From: Candidatus Nealsonbacteria bacterium
GTDB taxonomy: Bacteria; Patescibacteriota; Minisyncoccia; Minisyncoccales; MHMH01
Direction of reading: 5' to 3'
Length of the DNA: 64,000 nucleotides
Assembly (NCBI GenBank): GCA_016188865.1
Contig: JACPGX010000001.1
Span: 77,197 to 141,196 of the forward strand
The stretch's first letter is position 1; each line of letters opens with the position of its first letter. The position numbers were made by a program, and so were the translations under genes. The notes below the pieces were generated by a model. It made no database searches, was not told the origin of the DNA, and was given only the letters and a program-made list of their open reading frames with translations. Of this stretch, positions 4,605 to 45,047 are shown one piece after another.

Positions 4605-4683
4605 TTCGGGAGGTCCGAAACCGATTTAACACCCGGTGTTTCTCCGTCAACACCGGGTGTTGACGTTCGGTTTCGGACCTCAT
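4605..4683. repeat. nested-hairpin intergenic element, copy A
   Basis: Outer stem 4610-4624 / 4667-4681 (15 bp, perfect). Inner 13-mers AACACCCGGTGTT (4628-4640) and AACACCGGGTGTT (4649-4661). Linkers are TTTAAC and GACGT. Confidence 0.85.
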
Positions 4684-5415
4684 TTAATTAGTTATAAATC
4701 GTATAATTTTTTCTGCTAAAATTTCCGGTTTCTGCAGATTCAATCCATGCTCGCCATCTTCAATAATTTCCAATCTGGCATTGTTTATCTCTTTTTTTGC
4801 AATATACGCCTCCCTTATGGGCGTCATCACGTCTTGCGCTCCCCAAACGATTAAAGTCGGCGATTTAATTTTAGATAAGCAATGAGTCAAATCTTCTTTC
4901 GTTATTTTTTTAAAGGTTTCCTTCATCATAAGCATCCCGTTGATATCTAACTTATGGTAATCCGTAGTGCCGGCAAGCTTATATAAAATTTTCTTTATTT
5001 TTTCTTCCAATGGCCATAATAATATCAAACCGGTAATTGTAAATACGAATTTGCCCAATTTGGTTAAAAATAGAAAAATAATCTGCTTTACAGTTTGCCT
5101 TCTCCTAAGGGCTGGGGAAACTAAAATAAGTTTTGAAACCATTTCCGGATAAGCGCAGGAAAATTTTACCGCAATTCCCCCGCCAAATGAATGACCTATC
5201 AGAAAAAAATGCGGAAGATTATTTTTATCGCAATATCTTCTCGTCCATTCCGTATAATCGTCTACCGACCAAGGTTTTTCCGGCGCTGAATTTTCCCCAA
5301 AACCGGGCAAATCCGGCACGAAAACTTTATACCCTTGATTTTCTAAAAGTTCTTTAACTCTGCTCCAATTTTTAGATGAAGACCCCCAACCGTGAAGAAT
5401 AAGAATGGTGTTCAT
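4684..5415 (-). CDS. alpha/beta-fold hydrolase
   Basis: ILILHGWGSS oxyanion region and nucleophile elbow GHSFGG. Confidence 0.8.
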   Translation of the reverse strand: MNTILILHGWGSSSKNWSRVKELLENQGYKVFVPDLPGFGENSAPEKPWSVDDYTEWTRRYCDKNNLPHFFLIGHSFGGGIAVKFSCAYPEMVSKLILVSPALRRRQTVKQIIFLFLTKLGKFVFTITGLILLWPLEEKIKKILYKLAGTTDYHKLDINGMLMMKETFKKITKEDLTHCLSKIKSPTLIVWGAQDVMTPIREAYIAKKEINNARLEIIEDGEHGLNLQKPEILAEKIIRFITN

Positions 5416-5423
5416 AACGATAT

Positions 5424-5506
5424 TTTCGATGTCCGATTTCCCGTTTAACCTCCGAGGTTAACGCGACAACCTCGGAGGTTGACGTTCGGGAAATCGGACA
5501 TCGAAA
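5424..5506. repeat. nested-hairpin intergenic element, copy B
   Basis: Outer stem 5426-5443 / 5487-5504 (18 bp, perfect). Inner 13-mers AACCTCCGAGGTT (5447-5459) and AACCTCGGAGGTT (5468-5480). Same TTTAAC and GACGT linkers and same 8-nt central loop length as copy A. Confidence 0.85.
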
Positions 5507-6741: not shown

Positions 6742-6790
6742 GGAGAACCGTTCTCCCGATATTACGATTAATTTTGGGAGAACGGTTCTC
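6742..6790. repeat. REP family 1 (GAGAAC-C/G-GTTCTC), inverted pair
   Basis: GGAGAACCGTTCTCC at 6742-6756 and GGAGAACGGTTCTC at 6777-6790. The second copy supplies the last codons (REPFSQN) of rdgB. Confidence 0.8.
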
Positions 6791-8785: not shown

Positions 8786-8816
8786 ATTTAATTATTTTAC
8801 ATGACTTCTCCCAACT

Positions 8817-8854
8817 CGCCAAGTCTTGACAAAAATACGATTTAGGTGTATTAT
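8817..8854 (+). promoter_or_regulatory. sigma70-type promoter, cassette 1
   Basis: TTGACA 8826-8831, 17-nt spacer, TATTAT 8849-8854. The block CGCCAAGTCTTGACAAAA is repeated at 9383-9400. Confidence 0.65.
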
Positions 8855-8885
8855 TAAAATATAAATAAATAAGGAAAGGGAGGAA

Positions 8886-9176
8886 ATGGGATTGAAAAGG
8901 GACTTTAGTGTAAAGTATGGTAATAGAGAGATTAAAAACCCAGTACTCCGAGGCGCCGTTGTCAGCGGAGCCATAGTCTTCGGAGGAGTTATGGTAATCG
9001 CGCTTATCCCCCTGGTGGTCATTTTAGCAATAGTTCTTTCTCCTATTATGCTCCCCCTTCACTTCATCTTAAAGGCGATGGGGAGAAAGGGATGCTACAG
9101 AAGAACCGAAACAGAAACCGAGTGCAAGATCGAGGTCACTATAGACAGGGAGTCATTCAGTAAAATGGCTCCCTGA
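8886..9176 (+). CDS. hypothetical small membrane protein (96 aa)
   Basis: GGGAGG upstream of the ATG. The central ~45 aa are hydrophobic (two predicted helices). Own promoter and terminator. Confidence 0.5.
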   Translation: MGLKRDFSVKYGNREIKNPVLRGAVVSGAIVFGGVMVIALIPLVVILAIVLSPIMLPLHFILKAMGRKGCYRRTETETECKIEVTIDRESFSKMAP

Positions 9177-9207
9177 GGAGACGATGCGTCAGGAGTGAAT
9201 GTCCAAA

Positions 9208-9241
9208 AGAAAACCCTTGAGATAGCATCAAAGGGGTTTTT
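9208..9241 (+). terminator. intrinsic terminator, cassette 1
   Basis: AAAACCCTTGA ... TCAAAGGGGTTTTT. Homologous to the terminator at 10068-10101. Confidence 0.7.
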
Positions 9242-9274
9242 ATATTGAGTTAAAAAACTAAACTCTGCAAAATA

Positions 9275-9293
9275 TTAAACACCGAGTGTTTAA
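9275..9293. repeat. palindrome TTAAACACCGAGTGTTTAA
   Basis: Related to the inner 13-mer (AACACC-C-GGTGTT) of the nested-hairpin element at 4628-4640. Confidence 0.6.
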
Positions 9294-9327
9294 CATTTGC
9301 TCTATATTTTGAAAATTTTGTATTAAT

Positions 9328-9356
9328 AATAGGGCGAGAACCGTTCTCGCCCTATT
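9328..9356. repeat. REP family 1 copy
   Basis: AATAGGGCGAGAACCGTTCTCGCCCTATT is a 29-nt palindrome around the GAGAACCGTTCTC core. Confidence 0.85.
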
Positions 9357-9382
9357 TTCAATTTACACAATTTTTCTCCCCG

Positions 9383-9420
9383 CGCCAAGTCTTGACAAAA
9401 TAAAAAATTGGGTGTAAGAT
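9383..9420 (+). promoter_or_regulatory. sigma70-type promoter, cassette 2
   Basis: TTGACA 9392-9397, 17-nt spacer, TAAGAT 9415-9420. About 55 nt are homologous to the cassette 1 promoter region. Confidence 0.65.
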
Positions 9421-9450
9421 ATTTTATTAGATGGAACATAGGGAGGAACA

Positions 9451-9630
9451 ATGGAACGGAAAGAAGTTAAATGGTCTTGTCATGCATGCGGCGCTAATGG
9501 AATAATCGAGTATACTCCCCCGGGAAACCCTTACCTTGTTGGCCACGAATGTGAGGAAGCTCATTCAAAAATATCGCCTGATTGCAAGAATCACATGCTG
9601 CGGTTTGATCCTGAAGAACTTGCGAAGTAA
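9451..9630 (+). CDS. hypothetical 59-aa Cys/His-rich protein (below the ORF-track cutoff)
   Basis: My translation: MERKEVKWSCHACGANGIIEYTPPGNPYLVGHECEEAHSKISPDCKNHMLRFDPEELAK. GGGAGG lies 4 nt before the ATG. Contains CxxC plus HxC and C. Confidence 0.5.
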   Translation: MERKEVKWSCHACGANGIIEYTPPGNPYLVGHECEEAHSKISPDCKNHMLRFDPEELAK

Positions 9631-9653
9631 GGGAGGTAAAGGAGGAGAAAACT

Positions 9654-9884
9654 ATGTCTAATGATGGAAAGATTTGGTGTATTTGCCAGAGATGCTCTTC
9701 CGAACTCTTAGGCATCCCGGACACTTCTTGCCCGGGGTGCGAGAAAGGAACCCTCGAGAAACACTGGCCGGAACACGTGAGTATTGAGGACGAGTATCCT
9801 AATGGAACGCACGTCCTAGTAATCCGTAAATCTCGCGGACCGATCAGTGGACATTACTGTACCGTACACAGGATAAAAGAATAG
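9654..9884 (+). CDS. hypothetical 76-aa zinc-ribbon-like protein
   Basis: AAGGAGGAG ribosome-binding site 6 nt upstream. CxCxxC ... CxxC cysteine pattern. GC visibly above flanking genes. Confidence 0.55.
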   Translation: MSNDGKIWCICQRCSSELLGIPDTSCPGCEKGTLEKHWPEHVSIEDEYPNGTHVLVIRKSRGPISGHYCTVHRIKE

Positions 9885-10085
9885 ATGGAAAAAATTATGT
9901 TGACCCCGGGAAGCATGGGGGTTGCTAAACACGCCATTGACCTTTTTGGCATAGAAAGGGTCGAGGTCGGCGCATGGCTGAATCCCGTACGGGTAAATGA
10001 TCTTTCAGAAGATGAAATCAAGTTTGCCGAAGAGTTCTTTCGGGAATATGGCATCGCAGTCACAAAAGAAAACCCCTCGAGATAA
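9885..10085 (+). CDS. hypothetical 66-aa protein
   Basis: The ATG directly abuts the upstream stop (TAGATG). The stop codon lies inside the terminator stem. Confidence 0.5.
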   Translation: MEKIMLTPGSMGVAKHAIDLFGIERVEVGAWLNPVRVNDLSEDEIKFAEEFFREYGIAVTKENPSR

Positions 10086-10101
10086 TATCAAGAGGGGTTT
10101 T
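10068..10101 (+). terminator. intrinsic terminator, cassette 2
   Basis: AAAACCCCTC ... GAGGGGTTTT followed by AT-rich sequence. Confidence 0.7.
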
Positions 10102-10112
10102 ATATTTAATAA

Positions 10113-10143
10113 AAATAGGTCGAGAACCGTTCTCGACCTATTT
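10113..10143. repeat. REP family 1 copy, 3' flank of the RAYT-like gene
   Basis: AAATAGGTCGAGAACCGTTCTCGACCTATTT is a 31-nt palindrome, 3 nt from the stop codon at 10146. Confidence 0.85.
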
Positions 10144-10145
10144 TC

Positions 10146-10868
10146 TTATTCTATGGCTACTTCTTTATAATCTGCTAATTCTTTTTTATGCTGCAGCCAA
10201 TCGTTAACAAATCTTTTAGCCTCTCTTATCTCACCGATTGTTTCTAATAAAAATTCCCTGCTGGTAACCGATGGAAAATTCTTATTTCCTAAATAATCCG
10301 GATAGCTCGACCAGCGATATTGTTCTTCAAGGAATTGTATTACTTTATTTAAATCTTTAATTTTAATTCCTTCTTCTTTCCATTTTGGACAAATAATCGC
10401 TACCGGATTGGTGTGAATATAAACGAAAACCGTTAATAACTGCCTATCATCTTTAACGTGAACAATCCTATATTTTCCTTGAAACAAATGCCCGCTTCTT
10501 TGATATTTCTTATTATAATAACCGCCGTATCCCGCACCGATTTTTCGCATAAATTTACTAATTCCGCCATCTTTGAGCTGTCTCACTAATAAATGCACAT
10601 GATTAGGCATTAAACAAAACGCCAAAATCTCAACTAAAAGCTTCCTCGGCTCTCTCCTTTCCCGCGGTAATGAGTCGAGAACCGTTCTCGACCTATTTAC
10701 GGTATTCCTGAAAGACGATAATACTGAAACTTCGTTATTAAACTCGAATAAATCATGGACCATTCGAAAATTATCTTTCTCCTCTCGAAAAAGTTTTAAA
10801 CCTTCTATGGCGCGGATAACTATATGGTATATTTCTCCGTTAGATAATGGCGGACGTTTTATCGGCAT
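10146..10868 (-). CDS. IS200/IS605-type Y1 HUH transposase-like protein (RAYT-like)
   Basis: YHIVIRA, HUH motif LMPNHVHLLV, catalytic-Tyr region VYIHTNPV. I prefer the ATG at 10868 (MPIKRPP), because the track start at 10898 reads through a REP copy. Confidence 0.7.
   Translation of the reverse strand: MPIKRPPLSNGEIYHIVIRAIEGLKLFREEKDNFRMVHDLFEFNNEVSVLSSFRNTVNRSRTVLDSLPRERREPRKLLVEILAFCLMPNHVHLLVRQLKDGGISKFMRKIGAGYGGYYNKKYQRSGHLFQGKYRIVHVKDDRQLLTVFVYIHTNPVAIICPKWKEEGIKIKDLNKVIQFLEEQYRWSSYPDYLGNKNFPSVTSREFLLETIGEIREAKRFVNDWLQHKKELADYKEVAIE
10672..10698. repeat. REP family 1 copy inside the RAYT-like CDS
   Basis: GAGTCGAGAACCGTTCTCGACCTATTT is the exact reverse complement of the 10872-10896 core. 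It is translated in frame as NRSRTVLDS. Confidence 0.8.
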
Positions 10869-10871
10869 AAT

Positions 10872-10898
10872 ATAGGTCGAGAACGGTTCTCGACTCAT
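10872..10898. repeat. REP family 1 copy, 5' flank of the RAYT-like gene
   Basis: ATAGGTCGAGAACGGTTCTCGACTCAT, in opposite orientation (GG centre) to the 3' flank copy. Confidence 0.85.
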
Positions 10899-14609: not shown

Positions 14610-14729
14610 GCTTTGGTGGCAGCTACCTACTTTCGCCCATAAAGGACTATCATCGGCCTTAAGCTATTTCACTTCCGTGTTCGAAATGGGAACGGGTGGG
14701 ACAAGCTCAGTATAGCCGCCACCAAAACG
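14610..14729 (-). rRNA. rrf: 5S rRNA
   Basis: The reverse complement reads ...GGUGGCGGCUAUACUGAGC...CCCACCCGUUCCCAUUUCGAACACGGAAGUGAAA...GUAGGUAGCUGCCACC. Ends are +/- 5 nt. Confidence 0.9.
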
Positions 14730-14732
14730 CCT

Positions 14733-14767
14733 AATAACGCAATCAATAATTGCCAGCTAATTTGTAG
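14733..14767 (-). other. 3' strand of the 23S processing stem
   Basis: AATAACGCAATCAATAATTGCCAGCTAATTTGTAG is complementary, with a few mismatches, to 19210-19242. Confidence 0.7.
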
Positions 14768-15029
14768 ATAAAAAGCTTTACCTATTAGTACTCCTCGGCT
14801 TAACCCATTGCTGGGCTTACACCTAGAGCCTATCAACCCTGTCATCTACAGGGGGTTAATGAATCCTAATCTTGGGGTGGGCTTCGAGCTTAGATGCTTT
14901 CAGCTCTTATCCCTTCCCGACTTAGCTACCCAGCAATGCTCCTGGCGGAACAGCTGGTACACCAGAGGTCAGTTCCTCGAGGTCCTCTCGTACTGTCGAG
15001 GACTCCCCTCAAGATTCGACGCCTGCGGT

Positions 15030-15060
<31 letters not shown>

Positions 15061-15141
15061 GAACCCAGCTCACGTACCTCTTTAACATCGAGGTGCCGAA
15101 CAGGGCCGTTGATATGGACTCGCGGGCCCTACTAGCCTGTT

Positions 15142-16024
15142 CATAGTTAATTTTAGTTAACCATAGACTATATCTTCACCCGCCTAAATATAAATTTTTG
15201 GCGGGGGCGGCGTATGAACTAAATTTTAATTTTAGTTCTCACCCATTTAAGGGATCAGTCGTTACGGGGTCAAGAAGAAATTTTATAATTAAATGTTGGC
15301 AGAATAAATGATCGTATTGTTTGGTGCAACTTAATGGTTTCTTTTGGCGAAAAATAAAGAGCGAATCCTTTTTGTTTTTTATCTAATATTCTGCACAAAA
15401 CATGAAAATTATTTTCAATTGCTGTTTTGGCAATTTCGGCCTCTTTTTCTTGAACTCTCCCTAAATATAGATAGCTTACTTTATCGCGATGATAATAATA
15501 GCCATCATCCATATACCAAACGGCTAAAGCTAAAGAATCTTTTAAGAGATTGCTAAGCTGTTCTGGTATGCGTTTTTTTCCTTCTTTGTAAAATATTGCT
15601 CGCCATTTTCCCAATTCCGGAGTGGAATTGGACTGGTGGCGCCAATATTTATATAACTTGCCGCTTATGGGATGTTTTCGTTCAAGATATTTTGGCTCGC
15701 CTTGGAATAATTTTGGAAATTTGTTTATTTTCCAGAAAAGATAATCTTTTTGATTATCGCCATGTTCAAAACGCAAACGTGAATTTTTCTCTCCAGTTTT
15801 CTGCAAATAAGCATCTCCCAAAATTGTTCCTATAAGAATTGATTTTTGCTCTCTATTAAACTTCACAAATTTTTCTTCTGACTTCCCACGGTGTTGAAAG
15901 AACTCAAAACCTTTTTGTCAAAGGAAGACCAGTTCTTGTTTCACCGTTATAAGCCACTTTAAACTATATCTTATTACTAAGACATAGAGACAACAACCTC
16001 TGTGATTATTATATCACGAGGTTC
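15142..16024 (-). mobile_element. group I intron at 23S position equivalent to E. coli 2449
   Basis: The exons read CCGGGGAU | AACAGGCU. The 5' exon ends in U and the intron ends in G. Core elements include GAAGAUAUAGUC (S-like). Contains a homing endonuclease ORF. Confidence 0.8.
15270..15866 (-). CDS. LAGLIDADG homing endonuclease, two-motif (monomeric type)
   Basis: Motifs LIGTILGDAYL and LAVWYMDDGYY. GTG start. Intron-encoded. Confidence 0.85.
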   Translation of the reverse strand: MKFNREQKSILIGTILGDAYLQKTGEKNSRLRFEHGDNQKDYLFWKINKFPKLFQGEPKYLERKHPISGKLYKYWRHQSNSTPELGKWRAIFYKEGKKRIPEQLSNLLKDSLALAVWYMDDGYYYHRDKVSYLYLGRVQEKEAEIAKTAIENNFHVLCRILDKKQKGFALYFSPKETIKLHQTIRSFILPTFNYKISS

Positions 16025-16532
16025 ATCCCCGGGGTAACTTTTGGTTGATGATCTTCTGCGGTTCTACGAACCACAGTCGGTTCACTAAGTTCGAGTTTCC
16101 TCTCTGCGCGGCATATCCGCCTTGCAGTCAAGCCGGCTTGCGCCTTTACGCTATCAGTCCGATTTCCATCCGGACCTAGCCGACCTTATAAACTTCTCCG
16201 TTACTTTTTAGGAGAAAAGCGCCCCACTTAAACTGCCCACCAGACACTGTCTCCCCTTGCGGGGGTTAGGATGATGGATTCAAAAGACGGGTGTTTCATT
16301 GTTGGCTCCATGCCTCCCGAAAGAAGCACTTCAAAGCCTACCCGCTACACTACGCATTCAAAACCAAAATTCAATATCTAGCTACAGTAAAGCTCCCGGG
16401 GTCTTTCCGTCTAGCCGCAGGTAACCGGCATCTTTACCGGTATTGCATTTTCACCGGGCAACTCCTGGAGACAGTTCCCAAGTCGTTAAACCTTTCATGC
16501 GGGCCAGAACTTACCTGGCAAGGGGTTACGCT

Positions 16533-17249
16533 CAATCTGTTATATCCACAATACATTTGTGGAATTCTTTATGTCGCCATAAAGTTCGGACTATATCTTC
16601 CCGCCCAAATATTCAATTTTCGGCGGGTTCGGCGTATAGTCTCTGAGGATTCTTTAATTTATCGGAATTTTCTATTATTCATCTCTCTCACCATCAATCT
16701 TATTTTAGCCAATCCTTCCTCTCGGAGATGTCTTCCTTTTCCCATCATTTTTACAATTTTAGTAAAAATATGGAAATCTTTTTTCTTGGCAGATAATAAT
16801 TGATATTTTTCGAAAAATGGAATAATTTTCGTGAGTAAATCTACACGATTACGTACTACGTATTTTAGAAGATGTTCGTGATGGTTATCGTGTCTTTTAT
16901 TCAGATAGATTGCTCCGCAATTAAAGAAATTTTTAATTTTCTCTATTGCGGCTTTACTTTTCATTTCTTGCGTAATTACAAACTCTGGAAATACTTGCCA
17001 TTTTAGGCGCAATCTTGATTTGGGATGTTTAAAGAAACTTACAGTAAAACATCCTTCTCCATCAACAAACCCAACTATCCATCCAATAAATTTAAGCCTT
17101 TCCTGCTGATTGTCTGCACCGGATGATTTTTTACTTAACATAATGGATGGTAAGGTATATTACTACCTTACTCTATTATATCAAAGTAGCACCGGATACA
17201 CCAGATTTTCCAGCATATAGCCGAATTTTACTAAAGCAGTGCGTTATCT
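16533..17249 (-). mobile_element. group I intron at 23S position equivalent to E. coli 1931
   Basis: The exons read ...UAACUAUAACUGUGUUAAAGU | AGCGUAACCCCUUGCC. The intron ends in G. Core elements are CAGAGACUAUACGCC (R-like) and GGGAAGAUAUAGUCCGAAC (S). Confidence 0.8.
16659..17141 (-). CDS. LAGLIDADG homing endonuclease, single-motif (homodimer type)
   Basis: Motif WIVGFVDGEGCF. 160 aa. Intron-encoded. Confidence 0.85.
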   Translation of the reverse strand: MLSKKSSGADNQQERLKFIGWIVGFVDGEGCFTVSFFKHPKSRLRLKWQVFPEFVITQEMKSKAAIEKIKNFFNCGAIYLNKRHDNHHEHLLKYVVRNRVDLLTKIIPFFEKYQLLSAKKKDFHIFTKIVKMMGKGRHLREEGLAKIRLMVREMNNRKFR

Positions 17250-19209
17250 ACTTTAACACAGTTATAGTTACTGCGGACGTTCACTGGCGCTTAGGACGCT
17301 CAGCTCACACCTTGCGGCATGAACCGGCATCTTTAACGTTCCAGCACTGGTCAGGTTTCGGCCCCTATACATCCTCTTGCGAGTTGAGCAGGGACCTGTG
17401 TTTTTGATAAACAGTCGCTTGGGATACTTTTGTTGCAGCCTCAAATCCTTGCGGACTGAGGCAGGCCTTATCGCGAACTTACGGCCACTTTTTTGCCGAG
17501 TTCCTTCAGGAGCTTTCACCCGTTCACCTTGGCGCATTTACGCCTGCCTACCTGTGTCGGTTTGCGGTACGGAACCAGTTAAATAGTATACTTAAAACTT
17601 TTCTTGGCAATCTTATTTTTAAGACTTCCGCTTGCGCGGAATAAAAATCCAATAATTTTCTCAAAAATTTTGACTGCGTCATCTTAAGATTATTTAACCG
17701 GTGGGCCGGAATATTAACCGGCTATCCATCTCTCGCTACCATTGGTAACAAAATTAGGACCGCCTAACCCTTGGCTGAATGTCATTGCCAAGGAAACCTC
17801 AGGCTTACGGTGTCCCGCGCTTTCAGCGGGATTGTGGTTACTCAAGCCAATATTCTCACTTCATAACGCTCCATGGTTGGTCACCCTTCCACTTCACAGC
17901 ATTATGAACGCTCCCCTACCCCGAGCATTCAATAAATTGAATACTCAGTCTTATCTTCGGTGCTGAGCTTAGTCCCGTATATCTTCGACGCGGGATCCCT
18001 TAGTTAGTAAGCTATTACGCACTTTTTAAAGGATAGCTGCTTCTAAGCTAACCTCCTAACTATCAAAGGAACCCCACTTCCTTGTAAACACTTAGCTCAT
18101 CTTAGGGACCTTAGATTAAGATCTGGGCTGTTTCCCTCATGACCTCGAAGCTTAGCCCTCGAAGTCTTACTATCCGCCTAAATTTTCTGGCATTCGGAGT
18201 TTAGTAGGAATACCTGGAGAAACTCCAAGATATTCCTTCTAGTGCTCTACCTCCAAAAAATAATGATGGCGGACGCTAGCCCTAAAGCTATTTCGGGGAG
18301 AACCAGCTATTACCAAGCTCGTTTAGGTTTTCTCTTCTTACCACAACTCATCCAAGAGTATTGCACGGCTCACTGGTTCGGACCTCCCCTCGCATTTCTG
18401 CGAAGTTCATCCTGGTTATGGTAAGCTCGCTTGGCTTCGGGTCTTACGCGCGCTCCTAATCGGGCTATTAACCCTTGCTTTCACTTTGCCTTCCTCCGTT
18501 TAACGGAGTTAGACTTGGAGCACACATAAACTCGTTGGCTCGTTCTGCAAAAAGCACGACGTCACCCTAAACCCTTGCGGGTCGCGGGCTCCGTCTCGTT
18601 GTGGGTAAAACGGTTTCAGGTTCTATTTCACCGCCCTTAACGGGCTACTTTTCACCTTTCCCTCACGGTACTGGTTCACTATCGGAGATATCGTAGTATT
18701 TAGCCTTGGCCGAGTAGTTCGGCCGGATTCCTTCAAAGCTTTCGTGCTTCGAAGTACTTAAGAAAAGTATCAAGGAGCATAAAGCCGTTTTCGCTTACGG
18801 GACTATTACCCTCTATGGTTGTCCTTTCCAGGAACATTCAACTAACGAAGCTTCACCTAAATGTTCTCCCTCCGGATTGCTCCGGACAATACTCCCTTGC
18901 AACACCACTCAATGCTTCTTGCGAAGCATAAAATGGTTTAGGCTGTTGCCCTTTCGCTCGCCGCTACTAAGGCAATAAAATTATTTTTCTTTTCCTCTGG
19001 GTACTATGATGTTTCGCTTCCCCAGGTTCGCCCCAGATACAATACTGCATCTGGCGGCCGAGTTTTAGCTCGGCCCTGTTTCCAGATTCGGAAATTCCCG
19101 GATCAAAGGTTGAGAGTCACCTCCCCGAGACTTATCGCAGACTCCCCACGTCCTTCATCGCCTCGATATCCCAAGGCATCCACCGTTTACCCTTAAATGC
19201 AATTTTTAC

Positions 19210-19242
19210 CTACATTAGCTAGCAATTAATAATTGCGTTATT
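19210..19242 (-). other. 5' strand of the 23S processing stem
   Basis: CTACATTAGCTAGCAATTAATAATTGCGTTATT pairs with 14733-14767. Confidence 0.7.
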
Positions 19243-26302: not shown

Positions 26303-27454
26303 TCAAATCTTAAAATATTTTAACAGGCACTTTTGAAATTTTCCCAAGTTTTTATTTTTAATGCGGAAGCCGGCTGCTTGCGGATGCCCTCCGTATGTTT
26401 CAAGATATTTTGAGCAATAAATCATGGGTTTTACCCCGTCAATACCCTTAGGGGTTCTGACAGCTCCTTGAGAGTCATTTTTTCTCTGGCTATATAAAAA
26501 AGTTGGTTTTTTATAAGTGTTGCATATTCGGGAAGCGGCGGGAGCGGCTATTAAAATAGGCCAATCTTTATCTCCCTCAAAAATAATCGGCTCTTCTATT
26601 TTCTTTAGAGCTCTCTTTTCAACCTCCTCCGTTGCTACTTTAATCCTTTGCTGGCGGATATAAGATTTCTCTGAAAGTTCGACTGCCAAAGATTCTGCTC
26701 CTTCTAACGAAGGCGAAGTTAGAAGAAAATATGCTTCATTAATATGCTCTTTCGTTTCACCGGCATGGCAAGCAGAAATTATCTTTTGCGCCATAGGTCG
26801 AGAACCGTTCTCGCCCTCTTTTGCGAAGACTTGGAGGCCGGGACGGAAGGTACTTTTTAAAGAAGCTAATCCTTCGGTTATAATTTTTATATTATCTTCT
26901 TCCTCTATCATCATATCGGCTATGGTAGCTAAAGCTGCCAGCTCTAAAAAATTACCTCTCAAGGCTGGGGTCATTTTTTTATCCAAAAGAGCTTCGGATA
27001 ATTTAAAAACAACTCCGGCTGCGGCAAATTCCTTGAAAGGATACTTATCTCCTTTTTGTTTCGGATTTACTATAATTTTTGCATCTGGCAGTTTATTTAA
27101 AACCTTATGGTGGTCAACAACCATCACTTCAAAACCAAGTTTTTTGGCTAATTTTATTTCCTTAAAATTTCCTATACCCAAATCTACGGTAATGAATAAA
27201 GCCGGAGAATATTTTTTCAAATAATTTAAAGCGTCTTCATTCACGCCGTAGCCTTCTGTCTCCCTATCCGGAAAATATATTGCCGATACCTTGCCGCCAA
27301 GATTGATAATGGCTTCTTTTAAAATAATAACCGAACTAACGCCGTCCATGTCGGCGTCTCCATAGAGAATAATTCTCTCTTTTTTCTTTATGGCTTTTTT
27401 TATCCTCTCTGCCGCTTTTTTTAGATTTTTGATTTGGGACTTGACAGATTTCAT
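26303..27454 (-). CDS. DHH-family phosphoesterase, RecJ-like (short)
   Basis: GDADMDGVSS, DRETEGYG, VVDHH and GGHPQAAG motifs. Confidence 0.75.
   Translation of the reverse strand: MKSVKSQIKNLKKAAERIKKAIKKKERIILYGDADMDGVSSVIILKEAIINLGGKVSAIYFPDRETEGYGVNEDALNYLKKYSPALFITVDLGIGNFKEIKLAKKLGFEVMVVDHHKVLNKLPDAKIIVNPKQKGDKYPFKEFAAAGVVFKLSEALLDKKMTPALRGNFLELAALATIADMMIEEEDNIKIITEGLASLKSTFRPGLQVFAKEGENGSRPMAQKIISACHAGETKEHINEAYFLLTSPSLEGAESLAVELSEKSYIRQQRIKVATEEVEKRALKKIEEPIIFEGDKDWPILIAAPAASRICNTYKKPTFLYSQRKNDSQGAVRTPKGIDGVKPMIYCSKYLETYGGHPQAAGFRIKNKNLGKFQKCLLKYFKI
26794..26817. repeat. REP family 1 copy inside the RecJ-like CDS
   Basis: ATAGGTCGAGAACCGTTCTCGCCC, translated in frame as EGENGSRPM. 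Confidence 0.8.
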
Positions 27455-29378: not shown

Positions 29379-29420
29379 GAGGTCCGATCTCCCGTCATAT
29401 TTGTCGGGAGGTCGGACCTC
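29379..29420. repeat. REP family 2 hairpin (GAGGTCCGA...)
   Basis: GAGGTCCGATCTCCCG (29379-94) pairs with CGGGAGGTCGGACCTC (29405-20), with one T/G mismatch. Confidence 0.8.
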
Positions 29421-34440: not shown

Positions 34441-34482
34441 GAGGTCCGACCTCCTCTCAAATTTGAGTGGAGGTCGGACCTC
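34441..34482. repeat. REP family 2 hairpin
   Basis: GAGGTCCGACCTCC-T-CTCAAA|TTTGAG-T-GGAGGTCGGACCTC is a 42-nt palindrome. Confidence 0.85.
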
Positions 34483-38787: not shown

Positions 38788-39120
38788 TTAAATCGCTGTT
38801 TCTAATGGATAGATGTCCATAGCGATTTCTTCGTAAGGATGAACTTTTTTTATCGCCCTTAAAACTTTTTTCAATTTGCTCCTCTCGCATCTGGCCTCTA
38901 TTCTTTCTTCGAAAACCTGTTCCAATTTACCCGCCCTGCCGATTGCCGGCTTGGCTCCTTTTTTGGGCAGAAACCTGCCCTTTCCTTTGGCCGAAAAACT
39001 ACAAAATGAATAGTTCCCTATTTTCCCGGCTCCAGCTTTTCCCAGCGCCTTTCTCACCGCATCAGCATGCGTCTCAGGCGTAAATACTACAATTTTTACA
39101 AATTTATATTTATTTTCCAT
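38788..39120 (-). CDS. NIF3-insert/YqfO-C-terminal-like small protein (COG3323-type)
   Basis: FVKIVVFTPETHADAVRKAL..AGAGKIGNY..C.F and HPYEEIAMDIYPL. I prefer the ATG at 39120, because the longer track ORF overlaps secA by about 125 nt. Confidence 0.55.
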   Translation of the reverse strand: MENKYKFVKIVVFTPETHADAVRKALGKAGAGKIGNYSFCSFSAKGKGRFLPKKGAKPAIGRAGKLEQVFEERIEARCERSKLKKVLRAIKKVHPYEEIAMDIYPLETAI

Positions 39121-41470
39121 GACACCTTTTATATTTTTTCCCTGAACCGCACGGACAAGGGTCGTTTCTGCCCGCCTTTTGACTGTTGGACTTACGAAAT
39201 CCAACGGTACCGTTGGATTTCGTAAGTCCAACATCTTGCGGCTTAAGAGAAACTCGTAAAATTGTTTCGGCTATATTGGATTCAATGGTATCCAATAATG
39301 TTTTAAACATTCTGTGACCTTCGGTTTTGTATTCAACTAAGGGATCGCGTTGGCCGTAAGCCCGAAGGCGGACGGAATCGCGCAAGGCCTCCATCTCTTC
39401 CAAATGATTCATCCAAAGCATATCTAATGTCCTCAAAGCGACTATTTTAGCGACTTGATTAAAATTTTCGCCTAATTCTTTTACTTTTTCTTCGCAACCT
39501 TTAAGTTTTTCTTTCCAATCTTCTACTCGAAGAAACTCTTTTCTTTTTTTATAAATAACTTCTCGGTGTTTATTCAAAACATCGTCGTAATCCAAAAGGT
39601 GTTTTCTTAAATCAAAATTCAGACCTTCAATTTTTGACTGGGCCGATTCTATAGCGCCGGAAATCATACCCGCCTCAATGGGCTGATCTTCAGGGATTTT
39701 TAAAACATTCATCAATGATTTTATTTTCTCTCCCCCGAAAATCCGCATAACATCATCTTCTAGAGAAATGAAAAACTGGGAAGAACCCGGGTCTCCCTGC
39801 CTGCCCGATCTGCCGCGAAGCTGATTATCAATGCGCCTTGCTTCATGGCGCTCGGTGCCAATAACATGAAGGCCTCCCGATTCTCTGACCATTCGACTTC
39901 GCTCGGGGTTATCTTCGGGGTTGCCTCCGAGTATAATATCCACTCCTCGGCCTGCCATATTTGTGGCAATAGTTACGGCCCCTAATTTTCCTGCTTGAGC
40001 GATAATTTCTCCTTCTTTTTCATGATTTTTAGCATTCAAAATCTGGTGAGATACTCCTTCTATGTTTAAAAGCTTTCCCAAGTATTCATTTTTTTCAATC
40101 GAAGTAGTGCCCACCAAAACCGGCTGGCCATTTTCGTGCCTTTCTTTTATTGCTCTGACTACTGCCTTAAACTTTCCTTCTTCTGTTTTGTAAATTCTGT
40201 CGGGCAATTCTTTTCTAATCATCGGCTTATTGGTAGGAACTGCGATAAGATCCAGGTTATAAACTTTATCAAATTCTTCAGCCGAAGTAGCGGCAGTGCC
40301 GGTCATGCCAGCCAATTTCTTATACATCCTGAAATAATTCTGAAAAGTAATAGAGGCTAAGGTTAAAGATTCCGGCTGAACCGCAACCCCCTCTTTCGCC
40401 TCGACTGCCTGATGCAGCCCGCCCGACCATCGACGACCGGGCATTAGTCTGCCCGTAAACTCGTCAACAATAATCACCTCTCCGCTCTGGACCACGTAAT
40501 CCCTGTCCTTTTTGAACATCACTTCCGCCCTTAGGGCCTGCTCCAAATGATGAACGTATTTTATGCCTTTTTCTTCATATATATTTTCTTGACCCAAAAT
40601 CTTTTCTATCTTGCCAATCCCTTGCTCGGTTAAAGTAACTGCTTTCATTTTCTCGTCAATCTCGTAATCAGTTTTAGAATCTAATTTAGGAATAATTTTA
40701 GAAAATTCCTGATACCATTTTGATGATTCCGTGTCGGGAGCCGAAATTATCAACGGAGTTCTGGCCTCATCGATTAAAATAGAATCAACCTCGTCAACGA
40801 TTGCATAATTAAACCCGCGCTGGACCTGCTGATTTAAATCATAAGCCATATTGTCTCTTAAATAATCAAACCCGAACTCGTTATTGGTGCCGTAAGTAAT
40901 ATCAGCCGCATATGCATCTTTCCTGGAGCATGGCCTCAAATAATCATCAATAACTTTGAATCCGCCAAGCGCATCTCTTTCTTTGTCCTTATTGGAGTCA
41001 GGGTCATACACATATGAAGCATCATGGATGATACAGCCCGTTGATAATCCTAATGCATGATAAATTTGTCCCATCCAGACAGCGTCTCTTTTAGCTAAAT
41101 AATCGTTAACGGTAACAACATGTACTCCCTCGCCTCCCAGGGCATTCAAATAAATAGGCAAAGTTGCTGTTAGAGTTTTCCCTTCTCCAGTTTTCATTTC
41201 AGCAATCTTGCCTTCGTGCAAAACCATTCCGCCAATTAACTGCACATCAAAATGCCGCTGATTGAGCGTTCTTTTTGCCGCCTCCCTTACAAGCGCAAAC
41301 GCCCTCTCTAAGTTAATCGCTTGACGAAGTTTATCGGTCTCCCCTTTAAGCTGCTCAGCGGAAAAACCTTCAAATTCTTTTTCGAAGCTGTTTATCCTAT
41401 CAACCGCCGGCTGAAGTTTTTTCACATATTTTTCATTGGCATCGCCAAAAATTTTATTTAAAATTGGCAT
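39110..41470 (-). CDS. secA: preprotein translocase ATPase SecA
   Basis: DEAD-like motor motifs and a C-terminal zinc finger CPCGSGKKYKRCHG. Confidence 0.95.
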   Translation of the reverse strand: MPILNKIFGDANEKYVKKLQPAVDRINSFEKEFEGFSAEQLKGETDKLRQAINLERAFALVREAAKRTLNQRHFDVQLIGGMVLHEGKIAEMKTGEGKTLTATLPIYLNALGGEGVHVVTVNDYLAKRDAVWMGQIYHALGLSTGCIIHDASYVYDPDSNKDKERDALGGFKVIDDYLRPCSRKDAYAADITYGTNNEFGFDYLRDNMAYDLNQQVQRGFNYAIVDEVDSILIDEARTPLIISAPDTESSKWYQEFSKIIPKLDSKTDYEIDEKMKAVTLTEQGIGKIEKILGQENIYEEKGIKYVHHLEQALRAEVMFKKDRDYVVQSGEVIIVDEFTGRLMPGRRWSGGLHQAVEAKEGVAVQPESLTLASITFQNYFRMYKKLAGMTGTAATSAEEFDKVYNLDLIAVPTNKPMIRKELPDRIYKTEEGKFKAVVRAIKERHENGQPVLVGTTSIEKNEYLGKLLNIEGVSHQILNAKNHEKEGEIIAQAGKLGAVTIATNMAGRGVDIILGGNPEDNPERSRMVRESGGLHVIGTERHEARRIDNQLRGRSGRQGDPGSSQFFISLEDDVMRIFGGEKIKSLMNVLKIPEDQPIEAGMISGAIESAQSKIEGLNFDLRKHLLDYDDVLNKHREVIYKKRKEFLRVEDWKEKLKGCEEKVKELGENFNQVAKIVALRTLDMLWMNHLEEMEALRDSVRLRAYGQRDPLVEYKTEGHRMFKTLLDTIESNIAETILRVSLKPQDVGLTKSNGTVGFRKSNSQKAGRNDPCPCGSGKKYKRCHGK

Positions 41471-45032: not shown

Positions 45033-45047
45033 GGAGGTCGGACCTCC
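45033..45047. repeat. REP family 2 core palindrome
   Basis: GGAGGTCGGACCTCC with partially palindromic flanks. Confidence 0.7.

What the first reader, a model, noticed from the sequence alone, without database searches (positions are those of the whole stretch)
4605..5506. Family of ~80-nt nested-hairpin intergenic elements with conserved linkers and fully compensated stems
- **Architecture.** Elements A (4605-4683) and B (5424-5506) share an exact layout. In order: an outer stem of 15-18 bp, TTT, a 13-mer AAC-NNN-C-[C/G]-G-NNN-GTT, an 8-nt loop, the inverted 13-mer, GACGT, and the outer stem return.
- **What is conserved.** The linkers TTTAAC and GTTGACGTTCGG are conserved.
- **What differs.** Both stems differ almost completely in sequence yet remain perfectly paired. 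The inner 13-mers are ACC/TGT in A and CTC/GGT in B. The outer stems are GAGGTCCGAAACCGA in A and TCGATGTCCGATTTCCCG in B.
- **Position.** Each element fills the whole gap between a stop codon and the next start codon of co-directional minus-strand genes.
- **Related sequence.** A single related 13-mer sits at 9275-9293.

Structure is preserved while sequence is not, which argues for selection on an RNA or cruciform fold. Candidate roles are terminator, RNase III or processing site, mRNA stabiliser, or mobile-element end.
Basis: seen in the sequence. Interest (0 to 1): 0.55.

Follow-up and report, generated by a model that had tools for sequence, protein, structure and literature searches.

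The report
Nested REP-like palindromic repeat elements
The two ~80-base double hairpins flanking a hydrolase gene in this Nealsonbacteria (CPR) genome are real and belong to a wider family, but they look like selfish REP-type palindromic DNA (a small conserved hairpin module sitting in the loop of an older resident hairpin), not a purpose-built RNA signal.

Summary
**Observation.** It holds. Elements A (4610-4681) and B (5424-5506) are perfect nested hairpins with the same layout (z = -8.9 and -12.2).

**The family is real.**
- A metagenome scan found about 12 more copies of the same inner module, TT(T)-AACAYCCGRTGTT-loop-AACAYCGGRTGTT-GAC(G), in other Parcubacteria-like contigs.
- Most of these copies sit inside unrelated outer stems.

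**Evidence for inserted DNA rather than a dedicated RNA signal.**
- Two relatives have no spacer at either orthologous site.
- A third relative has outer-type hairpins without the module.
- Copies occur in both orientations relative to genes.
- Copies also occur in frame inside RecG, TsaE and GatA.

**Origin of the outer stems.** They match simple "doublet" hairpins elsewhere in the same genomes, whose arms are themselves palindromes (GAGGTC-S-GACCTC).

**Transposase context.** The window encodes a RAYT-like Y1 transposase (10146-10868). It is flanked by a third palindrome family, GTCGAGAAC-S-GTTCTCGAC.

**Best reading.** A and B are REP/REPIN-type repeats. A CGTC-tagged hairpin dimer is nested in the loop of a resident REP doublet, an arrangement already described in other phyla (Di Nocera 2013).

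**Limits.**
- Mobilisation by a Y1 transposase is inferred, not shown.
- RNA-level side effects are untested.

**Verdict.** New member of a known kind; moderate interest.

The parts
4610..4624 (.). Element A, outer left arm GAGGTCCGAAACCGA. It starts like the window's GAGGTC-S-GACCTC palindrome family.
   Evidence: The same GAGGTCCGA begins the hairpin in the orthologous gap of relative L008.
4625..4666 (+). Element A, inner module: TTT + AACACCCGGTGTT + TCTCCGTC + AACACCGGGTGTT + GACGT. On the gene (minus) strand it reads ACGTC-AAC...GTT-AAA.
   Evidence: CM R1 scores 63.9 bits. It is about 93% identical (my count from the sequences) to the module inside the RecG gene of L011.
4667..4681 (.). 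Element A, outer right arm TCGGTTTCGGACCTC
   Evidence: 15 bp, perfect
5424..5443 (.). Element B, outer left arm TTTCGATGTCCGATTTCCCG
   Evidence: It matches the arm of the simple hairpin at 29379-29420 at 14 of 16 positions. GATGTCCGA is also present in the orthologous gap of L008.
5444..5486 (+). Element B, inner module: TTT + AACCTCCGAGGTT + AACGCGAC + AACCTCGGAGGTT + GACGTT
   Evidence: CM R1 scores 53.7 bits.
5487..5506 (.). Element B, outer right arm CGGGAAATCGGACATCGAAA
   Evidence: 20 bp, perfect
9275..9293 (.). Single small palindrome TTAAACACCGAGTGTTTAA, a possible singlet of the inner 13-mer
   Evidence: 12 of 13 match to A's 13-mer; weak statistics
29379..29420 (.). Simple doublet hairpin of the outer-stem family: GAGGTCCGATCTCCCGTCA / TGTCGGGAGGTCGGACCTC. 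It fills a gap between co-directional genes.
34441..34482 (.). Simple doublet hairpin GAGGTCCGACCTCC-loop-GGAGGTCGGACCTC. Each arm is itself a palindrome. It fills a gap between co-directional genes.
45033..45047 (.). Singlet GGAGGTCGGACCTCC of the same family, in a 61-nt intergenic gap
6743..6790 (.). Doublet hairpin of the GAGAAC-S-GTTCTC family. It lies between SerRS and the Ham1/RdgB-like gene and overlaps that gene's 3' end.
10146..10868 (-). RAYT-like Y1 (IS200-like, HUH) transposase gene, at a conserved position (GreA-RAYT-LysRS)
10112..10144 (.). Cognate palindrome AAAATAGGTCGAGAACCGTTCTCGACCTATTTT immediately 3' of the transposase gene
10674..10692 (.). In-frame internal copy of the same palindrome inside the transposase ORF (encodes NRSRTVLDS)
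10876..10894 (.). Copy of the same palindrome immediately 5' of the transposase start codon
9328..9356 (.). Palindrome AATAGGGCGAGAACCGTTCTCGCCCTATT. Its translation (NRARTVLAL) nearly matches the internal peptide NRARSVLAL of paralogue P0187.

Best explanation
**What A and B are.** They are composite REP-type palindromic repeats, that is, selfish or semi-domesticated DNA of the REP/REPIN/BIME kind. They are not a dedicated RNA signal.

**Layer 1, the outer stem.** It is a resident REP-doublet hairpin of this lineage's own palindrome family (GGA-NN-TC-S-GA-NN-TCC, here GAGGTCCGA... and GATGTCCGA...). Hairpins of this family occupy the same two intergenic gaps in a relative.

**Layer 2, the inner module.** It is about 42 nt long and reads, on the gene strand, (A)CGTC-AACAYCCGRTGTT-loop-AACAYCGGRTGTT. 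It is conserved across many Parcubacteria-like genomes and sits in the A-rich apical loop of the resident hairpin. This leaves TTT/AAA on one side and the CGTC/GACG tag on the other.

**Why pairing is perfect but sequence differs.** The two layers are independent palindromes that are copied as units. No compensatory point mutation under RNA selection is needed.

**Most likely mechanism (inferred, not shown).** The elements move as single-stranded DNA hairpins through an HUH Y1 (RAYT/IS200-like) transposase. The genome encodes at least four paralogues of this kind. Insertion would occur into single-stranded hairpin loops 3' of a T-run. Once transcribed, such hairpins may incidentally stabilise or process mRNA.
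For: **Shown**
- **More copies exist.** A metagenome scan found 13 loci. About 12 carry the same module, and roughly 10 of those have unrelated, paired outer stems.
  - The inner stem has 0 broken pairs in 14 sequences, and 5 pairs show double changes.
  - The CM scores the metagenomic members and A and B at 53-67 bits.
- **Empty orthologous sites.** L007 and the Nealsonbacteria MAG locus L025 keep the SerRS-hydrolase-MurF synteny. The genes overlap or lie 1-4 nt apart.
- **Outer-type hairpins without the module.**
  - L008 has GAGGTCCGACCTC at the A site and GGATGTCCGACATCC at the B site.
  - In RecG, L028 (84% aa identity) has the outer doublet only, at the site where L011 has outer doublet plus module.
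- **Outer arms match simple hairpins in the same genome.** B matches 29379-29420 at 14 of 16 positions. The nested copy in L020 matches a simple doublet about 460 nt away at 13 of 15 positions.
- **DNA-level behaviour.**
  - L011 RecG carries a 24-aa in-frame insert relative to PDB 1GM5.
  - L012 TsaE carries two copies.
  - GatA and a RecG N-terminus also carry copies.
  - Orientation relative to genes is mixed.
- **Transposase context.**
  - The RAYT-like gene is flanked by its own palindrome.
  - The same association holds in L025, L026, L022 and L027.
  - The L027 cognate GACGAGATC-S-GATCTCGTC has the same TC-S-GA design as the outer stems.

**From the literature (Di Nocera 2013, PMC3733652)**
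- REPs form GTAG- and CGTC-tagged superfamilies.
- Their dimers can fold into one large hairpin.
- Dimers nested in longer palindromes are described.
- REPs occur inside repair genes.
Against: - **Low copy number seen.** There are only two module copies in the 64-kb window. There are none in 17.7 kb probably from the same population, or in about 35 kb of close relatives. The high copy number typical of REPs is not shown.
- **No cognate transposase.** No transposase gene was found flanked by this module. None of the 120 closest RAYT homologues carries its peptide signature.
- **No direct sign of movement.** No target-site duplication or excision footprint was identified.
- **Empty hairpins are not identical to filled ones.** The empty outer hairpins (L008, L028) differ somewhat in sequence from the filled ones. 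Apical deletion or replacement cannot be excluded.
- **Ascertainment.** The search pattern itself required TT and GAC. Only the third T (11 of 14 sequences) and the G after GAC (10 of 13 metagenomic loci) are independent evidence of linker conservation.
- **A and B differ four-fold symmetrically.** Their inner arms differ at two positions in each of four half-arms. No step here explains that.
- **RNA function not excluded.** There are no expression data.
Confidence: 0.6

Rival explanations
1. A and B are cis-acting RNA structures in a polycistronic mRNA, kept by selection on the fold. They would act as a 3'-exonuclease barrier or stabiliser, an RNase III processing site, or a terminator or attenuator between genes.
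For: - The hairpins are very stable on the transcribed strand.
- They fill the gaps between co-directional genes.
- REP hairpins elsewhere are hypothesised to act in mRNA stabilisation and transcription termination (abstract of PMC3733652).
- Long perfect stems would suit RNase III; this rests on general knowledge.
Against: - There is no U-tract on the gene strand.
- Family copies lie in both orientations, between divergent and convergent genes, and in frame within ORFs.
- The spacer is absent at the orthologous sites of two relatives, with the genes abutting.
- No Rfam family matches; only sub-threshold generic hairpin hits appear.
Confidence: 0.17
2. The inner 13-8-13 inverted repeat is a site-specific recombination site, lox/FRT-like for a tyrosine recombinase or attC-like as a folded single strand. 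The hydrolase gene between A and B would be a cassette.
For: - A and B have exactly the 13-8-13 geometry, and both flank one gene in the same orientation.
- AAC/GTT triplets recall the attC core sites; this is from my own knowledge.
Against: - The hydrolase sits at the same syntenic position in relatives that lack both elements.
- Loop length in the family varies from 6 to 11 nt.
- The stems are perfect, with no extrahelical bases.
- AAC/GTT lie at the outer end of the inner stem, not next to an unpaired central spacer.
- Copies are scattered singly in unrelated loci and inside genes.
Confidence: 0.04
3. The two palindromic 13-mers, 21 bp centre to centre, are a tandem operator for a dimeric DNA-binding protein, so the element is a double-stranded regulatory site.
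For: Each 13-mer is a perfect palindrome, and the spacing equals two helical turns in both A and B.
Against: - The centre base is complementary (C then G) in the doublets read here, as expected for an inverted repeat and not for a tandem site.
- The spacing varies with loop length in the family.
- The flanking genes are unrelated across copies, and some copies are intragenic.
- The half-site differs between A and B.
Confidence: 0.04
4. B is a local duplicate of A (or the reverse). The pair was kept perfectly palindromic by intra-hairpin gene conversion or template switching, and there is no wider family or function.
For: - The only two copies in 64 kb lie 740 bp apart.
- They share 51 identical aligned positions, including both linkers.
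Against: - Near-identical modules occur in at least 12 other contigs, in unrelated contexts.
- A's module is closer to the one in the L011 RecG gene than to B's.
- The outer arms of A and B match hairpins at their own orthologous gaps in L008.
Confidence: 0.05

Closest known systems
[quoted passage not shown]
   Same: - A dimer of small tagged palindromes in inverted orientation sits in the centre of a longer, unrelated palindrome.
- The whole element can fold into one large hairpin.
- Copies are mostly intergenic, with some inside genes.
- The CGTC tag lies next to a stem that starts with A-T pairs.
   Different: - The units here are much shorter: 13 nt, a 5-6 bp stem and a 1-3 nt loop, against 8-9 bp stems and 4-5 nt loops.
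- There is no CCA tail.
- Only one side of the dimer carries CGTC; the other side carries TTT.
- The host is a CPR bacterium.
- The carrier palindrome here also exists on its own in the same genomes. That was reported for T. roseum but not for A. variabilis or H. neapolitanus.
REPIN-RAYT systems (Bertels & Rainey 2011, PMC3116915; Nunvar 2010, PMC2817692)
   Same: - Two inverted REPs form a hairpin.
- A Y1 HUH transposase sits at a vertically conserved locus and is flanked by its cognate REP.
- Several REP families and several transposase paralogues coexist in one genome.
   Different: - The RAYT in the window is flanked by a different palindrome (GTCGAGAAC-S-GTTCTCGAC), not by the A/B module.
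- The NCBIfam RAYT model scores below its cut-off (45 against 80 bits).
- Each transposase gene also carries an in-frame internal copy of its hairpin. I did not see this mentioned in the REP/RAYT papers I read.
- Copy numbers are unknown.
BIMEs of E. coli (mosaics of REPs with conserved linker motifs)
   Same: Both are composite intergenic elements built from palindromic units in alternating orientation with conserved short linkers. The comparison with BIMEs rests on my own knowledge.
   Different: BIMEs are tandem, side-by-side mosaics. A and B are concentric (nested).
Rickettsia palindromic elements (RPE; RPE-4 and RPE-6 are CGTC REPs according to PMC3733652)
   Same: Both are palindromic repeats that also sit in frame inside conserved protein genes. 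Here these are RecG, TsaE and GatA in related contigs.
   Different: There is no sequence relationship. The A and B copies themselves are intergenic.
IS200/IS605 ends and their single-strand transposition
   Same: Both involve a hairpin plus short flanking single-stranded motifs. Insertion 3' of a short target on single-stranded DNA would fit TTT|AAC...GACG. This is inferred.
   Different: There is no transposase inside the element. Cleavage sites and guide pairing are not identified.

Membership tests
REP / REPIN (repetitive extragenic palindromes, REP doublets forming hairpins) | [quoted passage not shown] | tested here: met
   The inner 13-mers of A and B are palindromes and are inverted copies of each other, with centre C then G. 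The whole element folds as one hairpin.
REP / REPIN | Dispersed repeat: many copies at unrelated, mostly extragenic sites | tested here: inconclusive
   - There are two copies in the 64-kb window.
- About 12 further copies occur at unrelated loci in other metagenomic contigs.
- The per-genome copy number could not be measured, because the source genome is not in the genome collection.
REP / REPIN | A RAYT gene flanked by the same REP | tested here: not met
   - RAYT-like genes in the window and in L022, L025, L026 and L027 are flanked by other palindromes.
- None of the 120 closest homologues shows the module's peptide signature.
- The feature is met for the GAGAAC-S-GTTCTC family.
- For the outer-stem design it is nearly met: L027 has GAGATC-S-GATCTC.
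REP / REPIN | Presence/absence polymorphism at orthologous sites | tested here: met
   - L007 and L025 are empty at both sites.
- L006 and L008 carry other palindromes there.
- At the RecG site, L028 differs from L011.
CGTC-tagged REP families 1-4 (Di Nocera 2013) | Unpaired CGTC (or TGTC/CCTC) tag at one end; stem of 8-9 bp starting with two A-T pairs; loop of 4-5 nt; CCA tail | tested here: not met
   - **Tag.** CGTC is present in A and B, and CGTC, TGTC or AGTC in the metagenomic copies.
- **Stem start.** The stem starts with AA.
- **Stem and loop size.** The unit stem is 5-6 bp and the loop 1-3 nt.
- **Tail.** There is no CCA tail.
- Based. The family consensus figures themselves could not be read.
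Rho-independent terminator | GC-rich hairpin followed by a U-tract on the transcribed strand | tested here: not met
   - On the gene (minus) strand the tails are CCCGAAATCC (A) and AAAATATCG (B).
- The scan gives no minus-strand call at A or B.
Integron attC site | R''/R' (RYYYAAC / GTTRRRY) outer box, unpaired central spacer, L box with extrahelical bases; follows a mobile promoterless cassette; integron integrase nearby | tested here: not met
   - The stems are perfect, with no extrahelical bases.
- AAC/GTT lie on the inner stem.
- The flanked gene is syntenic in relatives that lack the elements.
- An integrase was not searched for.
lox/FRT-type recombinase site | 13-bp inverted repeats around a fixed 6-8 bp spacer, with a cognate tyrosine recombinase | tested here: inconclusive
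   - A and B have the 13-8-13 layout.
- The family spacer varies from 6 to 11 nt.
- No recombinase was looked for.
Any Rfam family | Score at or above the family's gathering threshold | tested here: not met
   - In the whole window only 23S and 5S rRNA pass.
- Sub-threshold hits at A and B are generic hairpin families far below threshold.
MITE | Terminal inverted repeats plus a target-site duplication | tested here: inconclusive
   The whole element is an inverted repeat. No direct repeat at the borders was recognised in comparison with the empty sites.

The most novel reading that the evidence does not exclude
The ~42-nt module (CGTC-AACAYCCGRTGTT-loop-AACAYCGGRTGTT) is a miniature single-strand-DNA element that spreads across Parcubacteria.
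- It would insert specifically into the apical loops of resident REPIN hairpins, and occasionally in frame into genes.
- It would be mobilised in trans by a CPR-specific clade of multi-paralogue Y1 transposases.
- These transposase genes are unusual in carrying their cognate hairpin three times: 5' flank, in frame inside the ORF, and 3' flank.
- That would make it a "repeat that parasitises repeats" in some of the smallest bacterial genomes.
Probability: 0.25. Interest if true: 0.6.

Novelty: new member of a known kind. Interest (0 to 1): 0.4.

Why it matters
CPR/Patescibacteria genomes are small and tightly packed. Even so, this one spends most of several intergenic gaps on palindromic repeats and keeps at least four RAYT-like transposase paralogues.

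**If the reading is right:**
- REP/REPIN-type systems, so far described mainly in Proteobacteria, Cyanobacteria and a few other phyla, are also active in CPR.
- They can be layered, with one palindrome living in the loop of another.
- They reach into conserved genes such as RecG, TsaE and GatA.

**Practical consequences:**
- These hairpins break short-read assemblies. Logan contigs end inside element A.
- They inflate or fuse ORF calls.
- They could be mistaken for regulatory RNAs.

**A separate lead.** The three-copy arrangement of the cognate hairpin around and inside each transposase gene is testable for how such transposases are regulated or co-evolve with their repeats.

Tried and rejected
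- **Genome-collection scan.** The exact layout gave two hits, both non-palindromic chance matches. The source genome is not in that collection.
- **Viral contigs.** A scan for the inner hairpin found nothing.
- **Rfam.** Nothing at gathering thresholds, and nothing meaningful at permissive thresholds.
- **Covariance model.** A model of the module found no further copies in the window or in close relatives. It found only a weak terminator-like relative in L022/L023.
- **Terminator reading.** Rejected, because there is no U-tract on the gene strand.
- **Hydrolase as a mobile cassette flanked by A and B.** Rejected, because synteny is conserved without the elements.
- **attC and lox readings.** Rejected or left weak (see the membership tests).
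- **Paralogues P0130 and P0187.** Their loci in the source contig could not be fetched, as they are not on record.
- **Search for a transposase cognate to the module.** I scanned the variable loop of the 120 closest RAYT homologues for TPGV/TPDV and found none.
- **L015.** This is a Bacteroidetes-like contig (my guess from its ORFs) with AACCTCCGGGGTT hairpins followed by T-runs. It is probably an unrelated terminator caught by the pattern (CM score only 22 bits).
- **Shared 8-mer.** GACGTTCG is shared between the A/B linker and the L008 gap. I treated it as possibly chance.
Full report
**1. The observation**

The window is from a Candidatus Nealsonbacteria (CPR/Parcubacteria) MAG. The hydrolase between the two elements is 100% identical to an NCBI protein of that name.

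Elements A and B are as described:
- **A:** 15-bp perfect outer stem 4610-4624 / 4667-4681, TTT, 13-mer, 8-nt loop, inverted 13-mer, GACGT.
- **B:** 20-bp perfect outer stem 5424-5443 / 5487-5506, with the same internal order.

Both strands fold into the nested hairpin:
- As RNA: z = -8.9 and -12.2, with no shuffle as good.
- As DNA: z = -8 to -11.

The elements fill the gaps between three co-directional minus-strand genes: MurF-like, alpha/beta hydrolase and SerRS.

- The 13-mer is AAC-NN-C-S-G-NN-GTT.
- A and B are not almost completely different. They share 51 identical aligned positions out of 72 and 83.
- Each 13-mer is itself a palindrome, with centre C in the first copy and G in the second.

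**2. The same design elsewhere in the window**

Other hairpins that fill gaps between co-directional genes are also doublets whose arms are self-palindromic:
- 29379-29420 and 34441-34482: GAGGTC-C-GACCTC ... GAGGTC-G-GACCTC.
- 6743-6790: GAGAAC-C-GTTCTC ... GAGAAC-G-GTTCTC.
- Singlets at 45033-45047, 9328-9356, 10112-10144, 10674-10692, 10876-10894 and 26799-26813.

Odd palindromes with arms of 6 or more are about twice the shuffled expectation: 52 against 28 +/- 6. By my count from that listing, about a third have a C-S-G centre.

The outer arms of A (GAGGTCCGA...) and B (GATGTCCGATTTCCCG) belong to the GAGGTC family. B matches the arm at 29379 at 14 of 16 positions.

**3. The family outside the window**
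- The exact layout is absent from 185,579 species-representative genomes; the two hits were chance matches.
- It is also absent from viral contigs.
- A metagenome scan returned 13 loci. About 12 carry the module TT(T)-AACAYCCGRTGTT-(8-11 nt)-AACAYCGGRTGTT-GAC(G).
- Roughly 10 of those are enclosed by a paired outer stem of unrelated sequence. One full-length variant, CACGACTTACGCAGTTGG..., recurs in seven contigs.
- Across 14 sequences the inner stem has no broken pair, and five pairs show double changes.
- A covariance model scores the metagenomic members and A and B at 53-67 bits. It finds only A and B in the window.
- A's module differs from the copy in L011 at about three positions (my count from the sequences).
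- Named relatives of an L011 protein are Parcubacteria, Paceibacteria, Gribaldobacteria and the Patescibacteria group.
- **Caveat:** the search pattern fixed TT and GAC. Only the third T (11 of 14 sequences) and the G after GAC (10 of 13 loci) are independent signs of linker conservation.

**4. Inserted DNA rather than a conserved signal**

*Orthologous A and B sites*
- Relatives with 79% (L007) and 55% (L025, GCA_016181965.1) identical hydrolases keep the synteny GreA-RAYT-LysRS-SerRS-hydrolase-MurF-FemAB-FtsQ (L007 covers only part of it).
- In both, there is no spacer at either site: the genes overlap or lie 1-4 nt apart.
- L006 (83%) and L008 (77%) have other palindromes in the same gaps.
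- L008 has GAGGTCCGACCTC at the A site and GGATGTCCGACATCC at the B site. These are the outer-stem type without the module.

*RecG*
- In the L011 RecG gene the whole nested element is a 24-aa in-frame insert relative to T. maritima RecG, PDB 1GM5.
- The 84%-identical orthologue L028 carries, at the same place, only the outer doublet GAGGTCCGACCTCTCCC-AAATC-GGGAAGGAGGTCGGACCTC.

*L020*
- The nested copy and a simple doublet about 460 nt away share arms at 13 of 15 positions.
- The nested copy's AAATTAAAT linker resembles the simple doublet's loop.

*Other intragenic copies and orientation*
- L012 TsaE carries two copies.
- L014 GatA and the L019 RecG N-terminus carry one each.
- Copies lie in either orientation relative to genes, and between convergent or divergent genes.

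*Inference*
- The outer stems are resident palindromes.
- The module sits in their A-rich apical loop.
- TTT/AAA is probably loop or target sequence, and CGTC/GACG is part of the module.

**5. Transposase context**

ORF 10146-10868 (minus strand) is a Y1/IS200-like HUH transposase:
- Pfam Y1_Tnp scores 44 bits against a cut-off of 23.
- The best NCBIfam model is the REP-associated tyrosine transposase, at 45 bits, below its cut-off of 80.
- The motifs NHVHLL, GHLFQGKY and YIHTNPV are present.

Its genomic setting:
- It sits at the same syntenic position in L025.
- The source contig encodes at least four paralogues with 65-72% identity.
- The gene is flanked on both sides by GTCGAGAAC-S-GTTCTCGAC.

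Homologues have their own co-varying hairpins:
- L025: the same palindrome as in the window.
- L026: CATACGAGAAC-S-GTTCTCGTATG.
- L022: TTAACGAAGAACGACATCGTTAG.
- L027: GACGAGATC-S-GATCTCGTC, which has the TC-S-GA design of the outer stems of A and B.

No transposase flanked by the A/B module was found.

**6. Comparison with what is known**

Di Nocera et al. 2013 (PMC3733652) report the following:
- REPs fall into GTAG-tagged families, which are RAYT-associated, and CGTC-tagged families, which have no dedicated transposase and whose stems begin with A-T pairs.
- Dimers may fold separately or as one large hairpin.
- REP dimers nested inside longer palindromes occur in A. variabilis, T. roseum and H. 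neapolitanus.
- REPs occur inside genes, often DNA-repair genes.
- RPE-4 and RPE-6 are CGTC REPs.

REPIN-RAYT biology is covered by PMC3116915, PMC2817692 and PMC5581495.

How A and B compare:
- They fit this kind in architecture, tag and behaviour.
- They do not fit any of the four defined CGTC families by stem or loop size.
- The RAYT-flank criterion is not met for the module.
- In the held library, none of the listed papers that mention Patescibacteria or Parcubacteria also mentions REPs or REPINs.

**7. Rivals**
- **Dedicated RNA element.** Disfavoured by orientation, intragenic copies, empty orthologous sites and the lack of a U-tract. Incidental RNA effects remain possible.
- **attC or lox-type site.** Disfavoured by conserved hydrolase synteny, variable spacer length and perfect stems.
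- **Tandem operator.** Disfavoured by the C/G centre inversion and the unrelated contexts.
- **Purely local duplication.** Contradicted by the metagenomic copies.

**8. Verdict**
- The best-supported explanation is a composite REP-type repeat: a CGTC-tagged hairpin dimer nested in a resident REP doublet. It is probably moved as single-stranded DNA by a Y1 transposase.
- **Inferred, not shown:** mobility itself, the identity of the transposase, and the loop-targeting mechanism.
- **Novelty:** a new member of a known kind, in a phylum where the literature searched here does not describe such repeats.
- **Most novel side observation:** the three-copy hairpin arrangement of the transposase genes.

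Noticed in passing
window 10146-10898 (-); also L025 3875-4650, L026 6648-7409, L022 8775-9567, L027 5899-6680: Every RAYT-like Y1 transposase gene examined carries its cognate hairpin three times: just 5' of the start, in frame about 200 nt into the ORF, and just 3' of the stop. The internal copy lies in a variable loop (for example NRSRTVLDS, HTRTVLVC, LTKNDIVS, TRSDLV) and co-varies with the flanking copies between genes. I did not see this mentioned in the REP/RAYT papers I read.
   Followed up: partly
source contig (proteins P0121, P0130, P0187, P0190): At least four RAYT-like paralogues (65-72% identity) are listed with the same 271-kb longest contig, which is unusual for a very small genome. 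The palindrome at 9328-9356 translates to nearly the internal peptide of paralogue P0187. This suggests one palindrome family per paralogue.
   Followed up: partly
window 14765-19210 (-): The 23S rRNA match spans 4446 nt against a 2925-nt model, so about 1.5 kb is inserted sequence. ORF 15270-15866 (-) inside it is a LAGLIDADG homing endonuclease (Pfam 120 bits). This looks like an intron-type insertion in the rRNA gene, of a kind I recall being reported in CPR rRNA genes. A 5S rRNA lies at 14614-14723.
   Followed up: partly
window 8786-10145: A 1.36-kb stretch between LysRS and the transposase gene is absent from relative L025, where the two genes are 81 nt apart. It holds small plus-strand ORFs, some Cys-rich and without Pfam hits. 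It also holds a duplicated promoter-like CCAAGTCTTGACAAAA (8820, 9386), terminator-like hairpins and palindromes. It may be a small inserted island.
   Followed up: partly
window 26799-26813, 39184-39233, 56944-56981: Further palindromes lie inside long mechanical ORFs: a GAGAAC-S-GTTCTC copy in ORF 26303-27454, a perfect 23-bp-stem hairpin with self-palindromic arms in the 3' part of ORF 39110-41470, and a GAGGTCGAACCTCTC doublet in ORF 56418-58085. They may be in-frame intragenic insertions like those seen in related contigs.
   Followed up: no
proteins P0241-P0360 (RecG homologues); L011 5196-5262; L028 1248-1418: In CPR RecG the segment between the P-x-IE motif and LHGK is hypervariable, 29 to 105 residues long. 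Several variants read like translated palindromic repeats, including a second nested-module copy in P0290. This looks like an insertion hot spot in a conserved helicase.
   Followed up: partly
L001-L003 (Logan contigs of the same locus): Unitig-style contigs from three sequencing runs all end about 50 nt past the hydrolase stop, inside element A. These long perfect palindromes break short-read assemblies.
   Followed up: no
L012 739-775 and 928-964: One TsaE gene carries two in-frame copies of the inner hairpin, encoding TSDVGAPLTSDV and TSDVGASLTSDV. The second is an insertion relative to solved TsaE structures.
   Followed up: partly
L022 8700-8745: A tandem 12-mer (GTTCTTGGAGAC, three copies) and a promoter-like TTGGCA...TATAGTATAAT lie upstream of the P0190 transposase paralogue. 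A terminator-like hairpin AAAACCCGATGTT...AACATCGGGTTTT lies downstream. Its stem resembles the A/B module (CM 22.7 bits).
   Followed up: no
window 1-64000: ARAGORN found no tRNA genes in 64 kb. Nearly all genes are on the minus strand and the GC skew is steadily negative.
   Followed up: no
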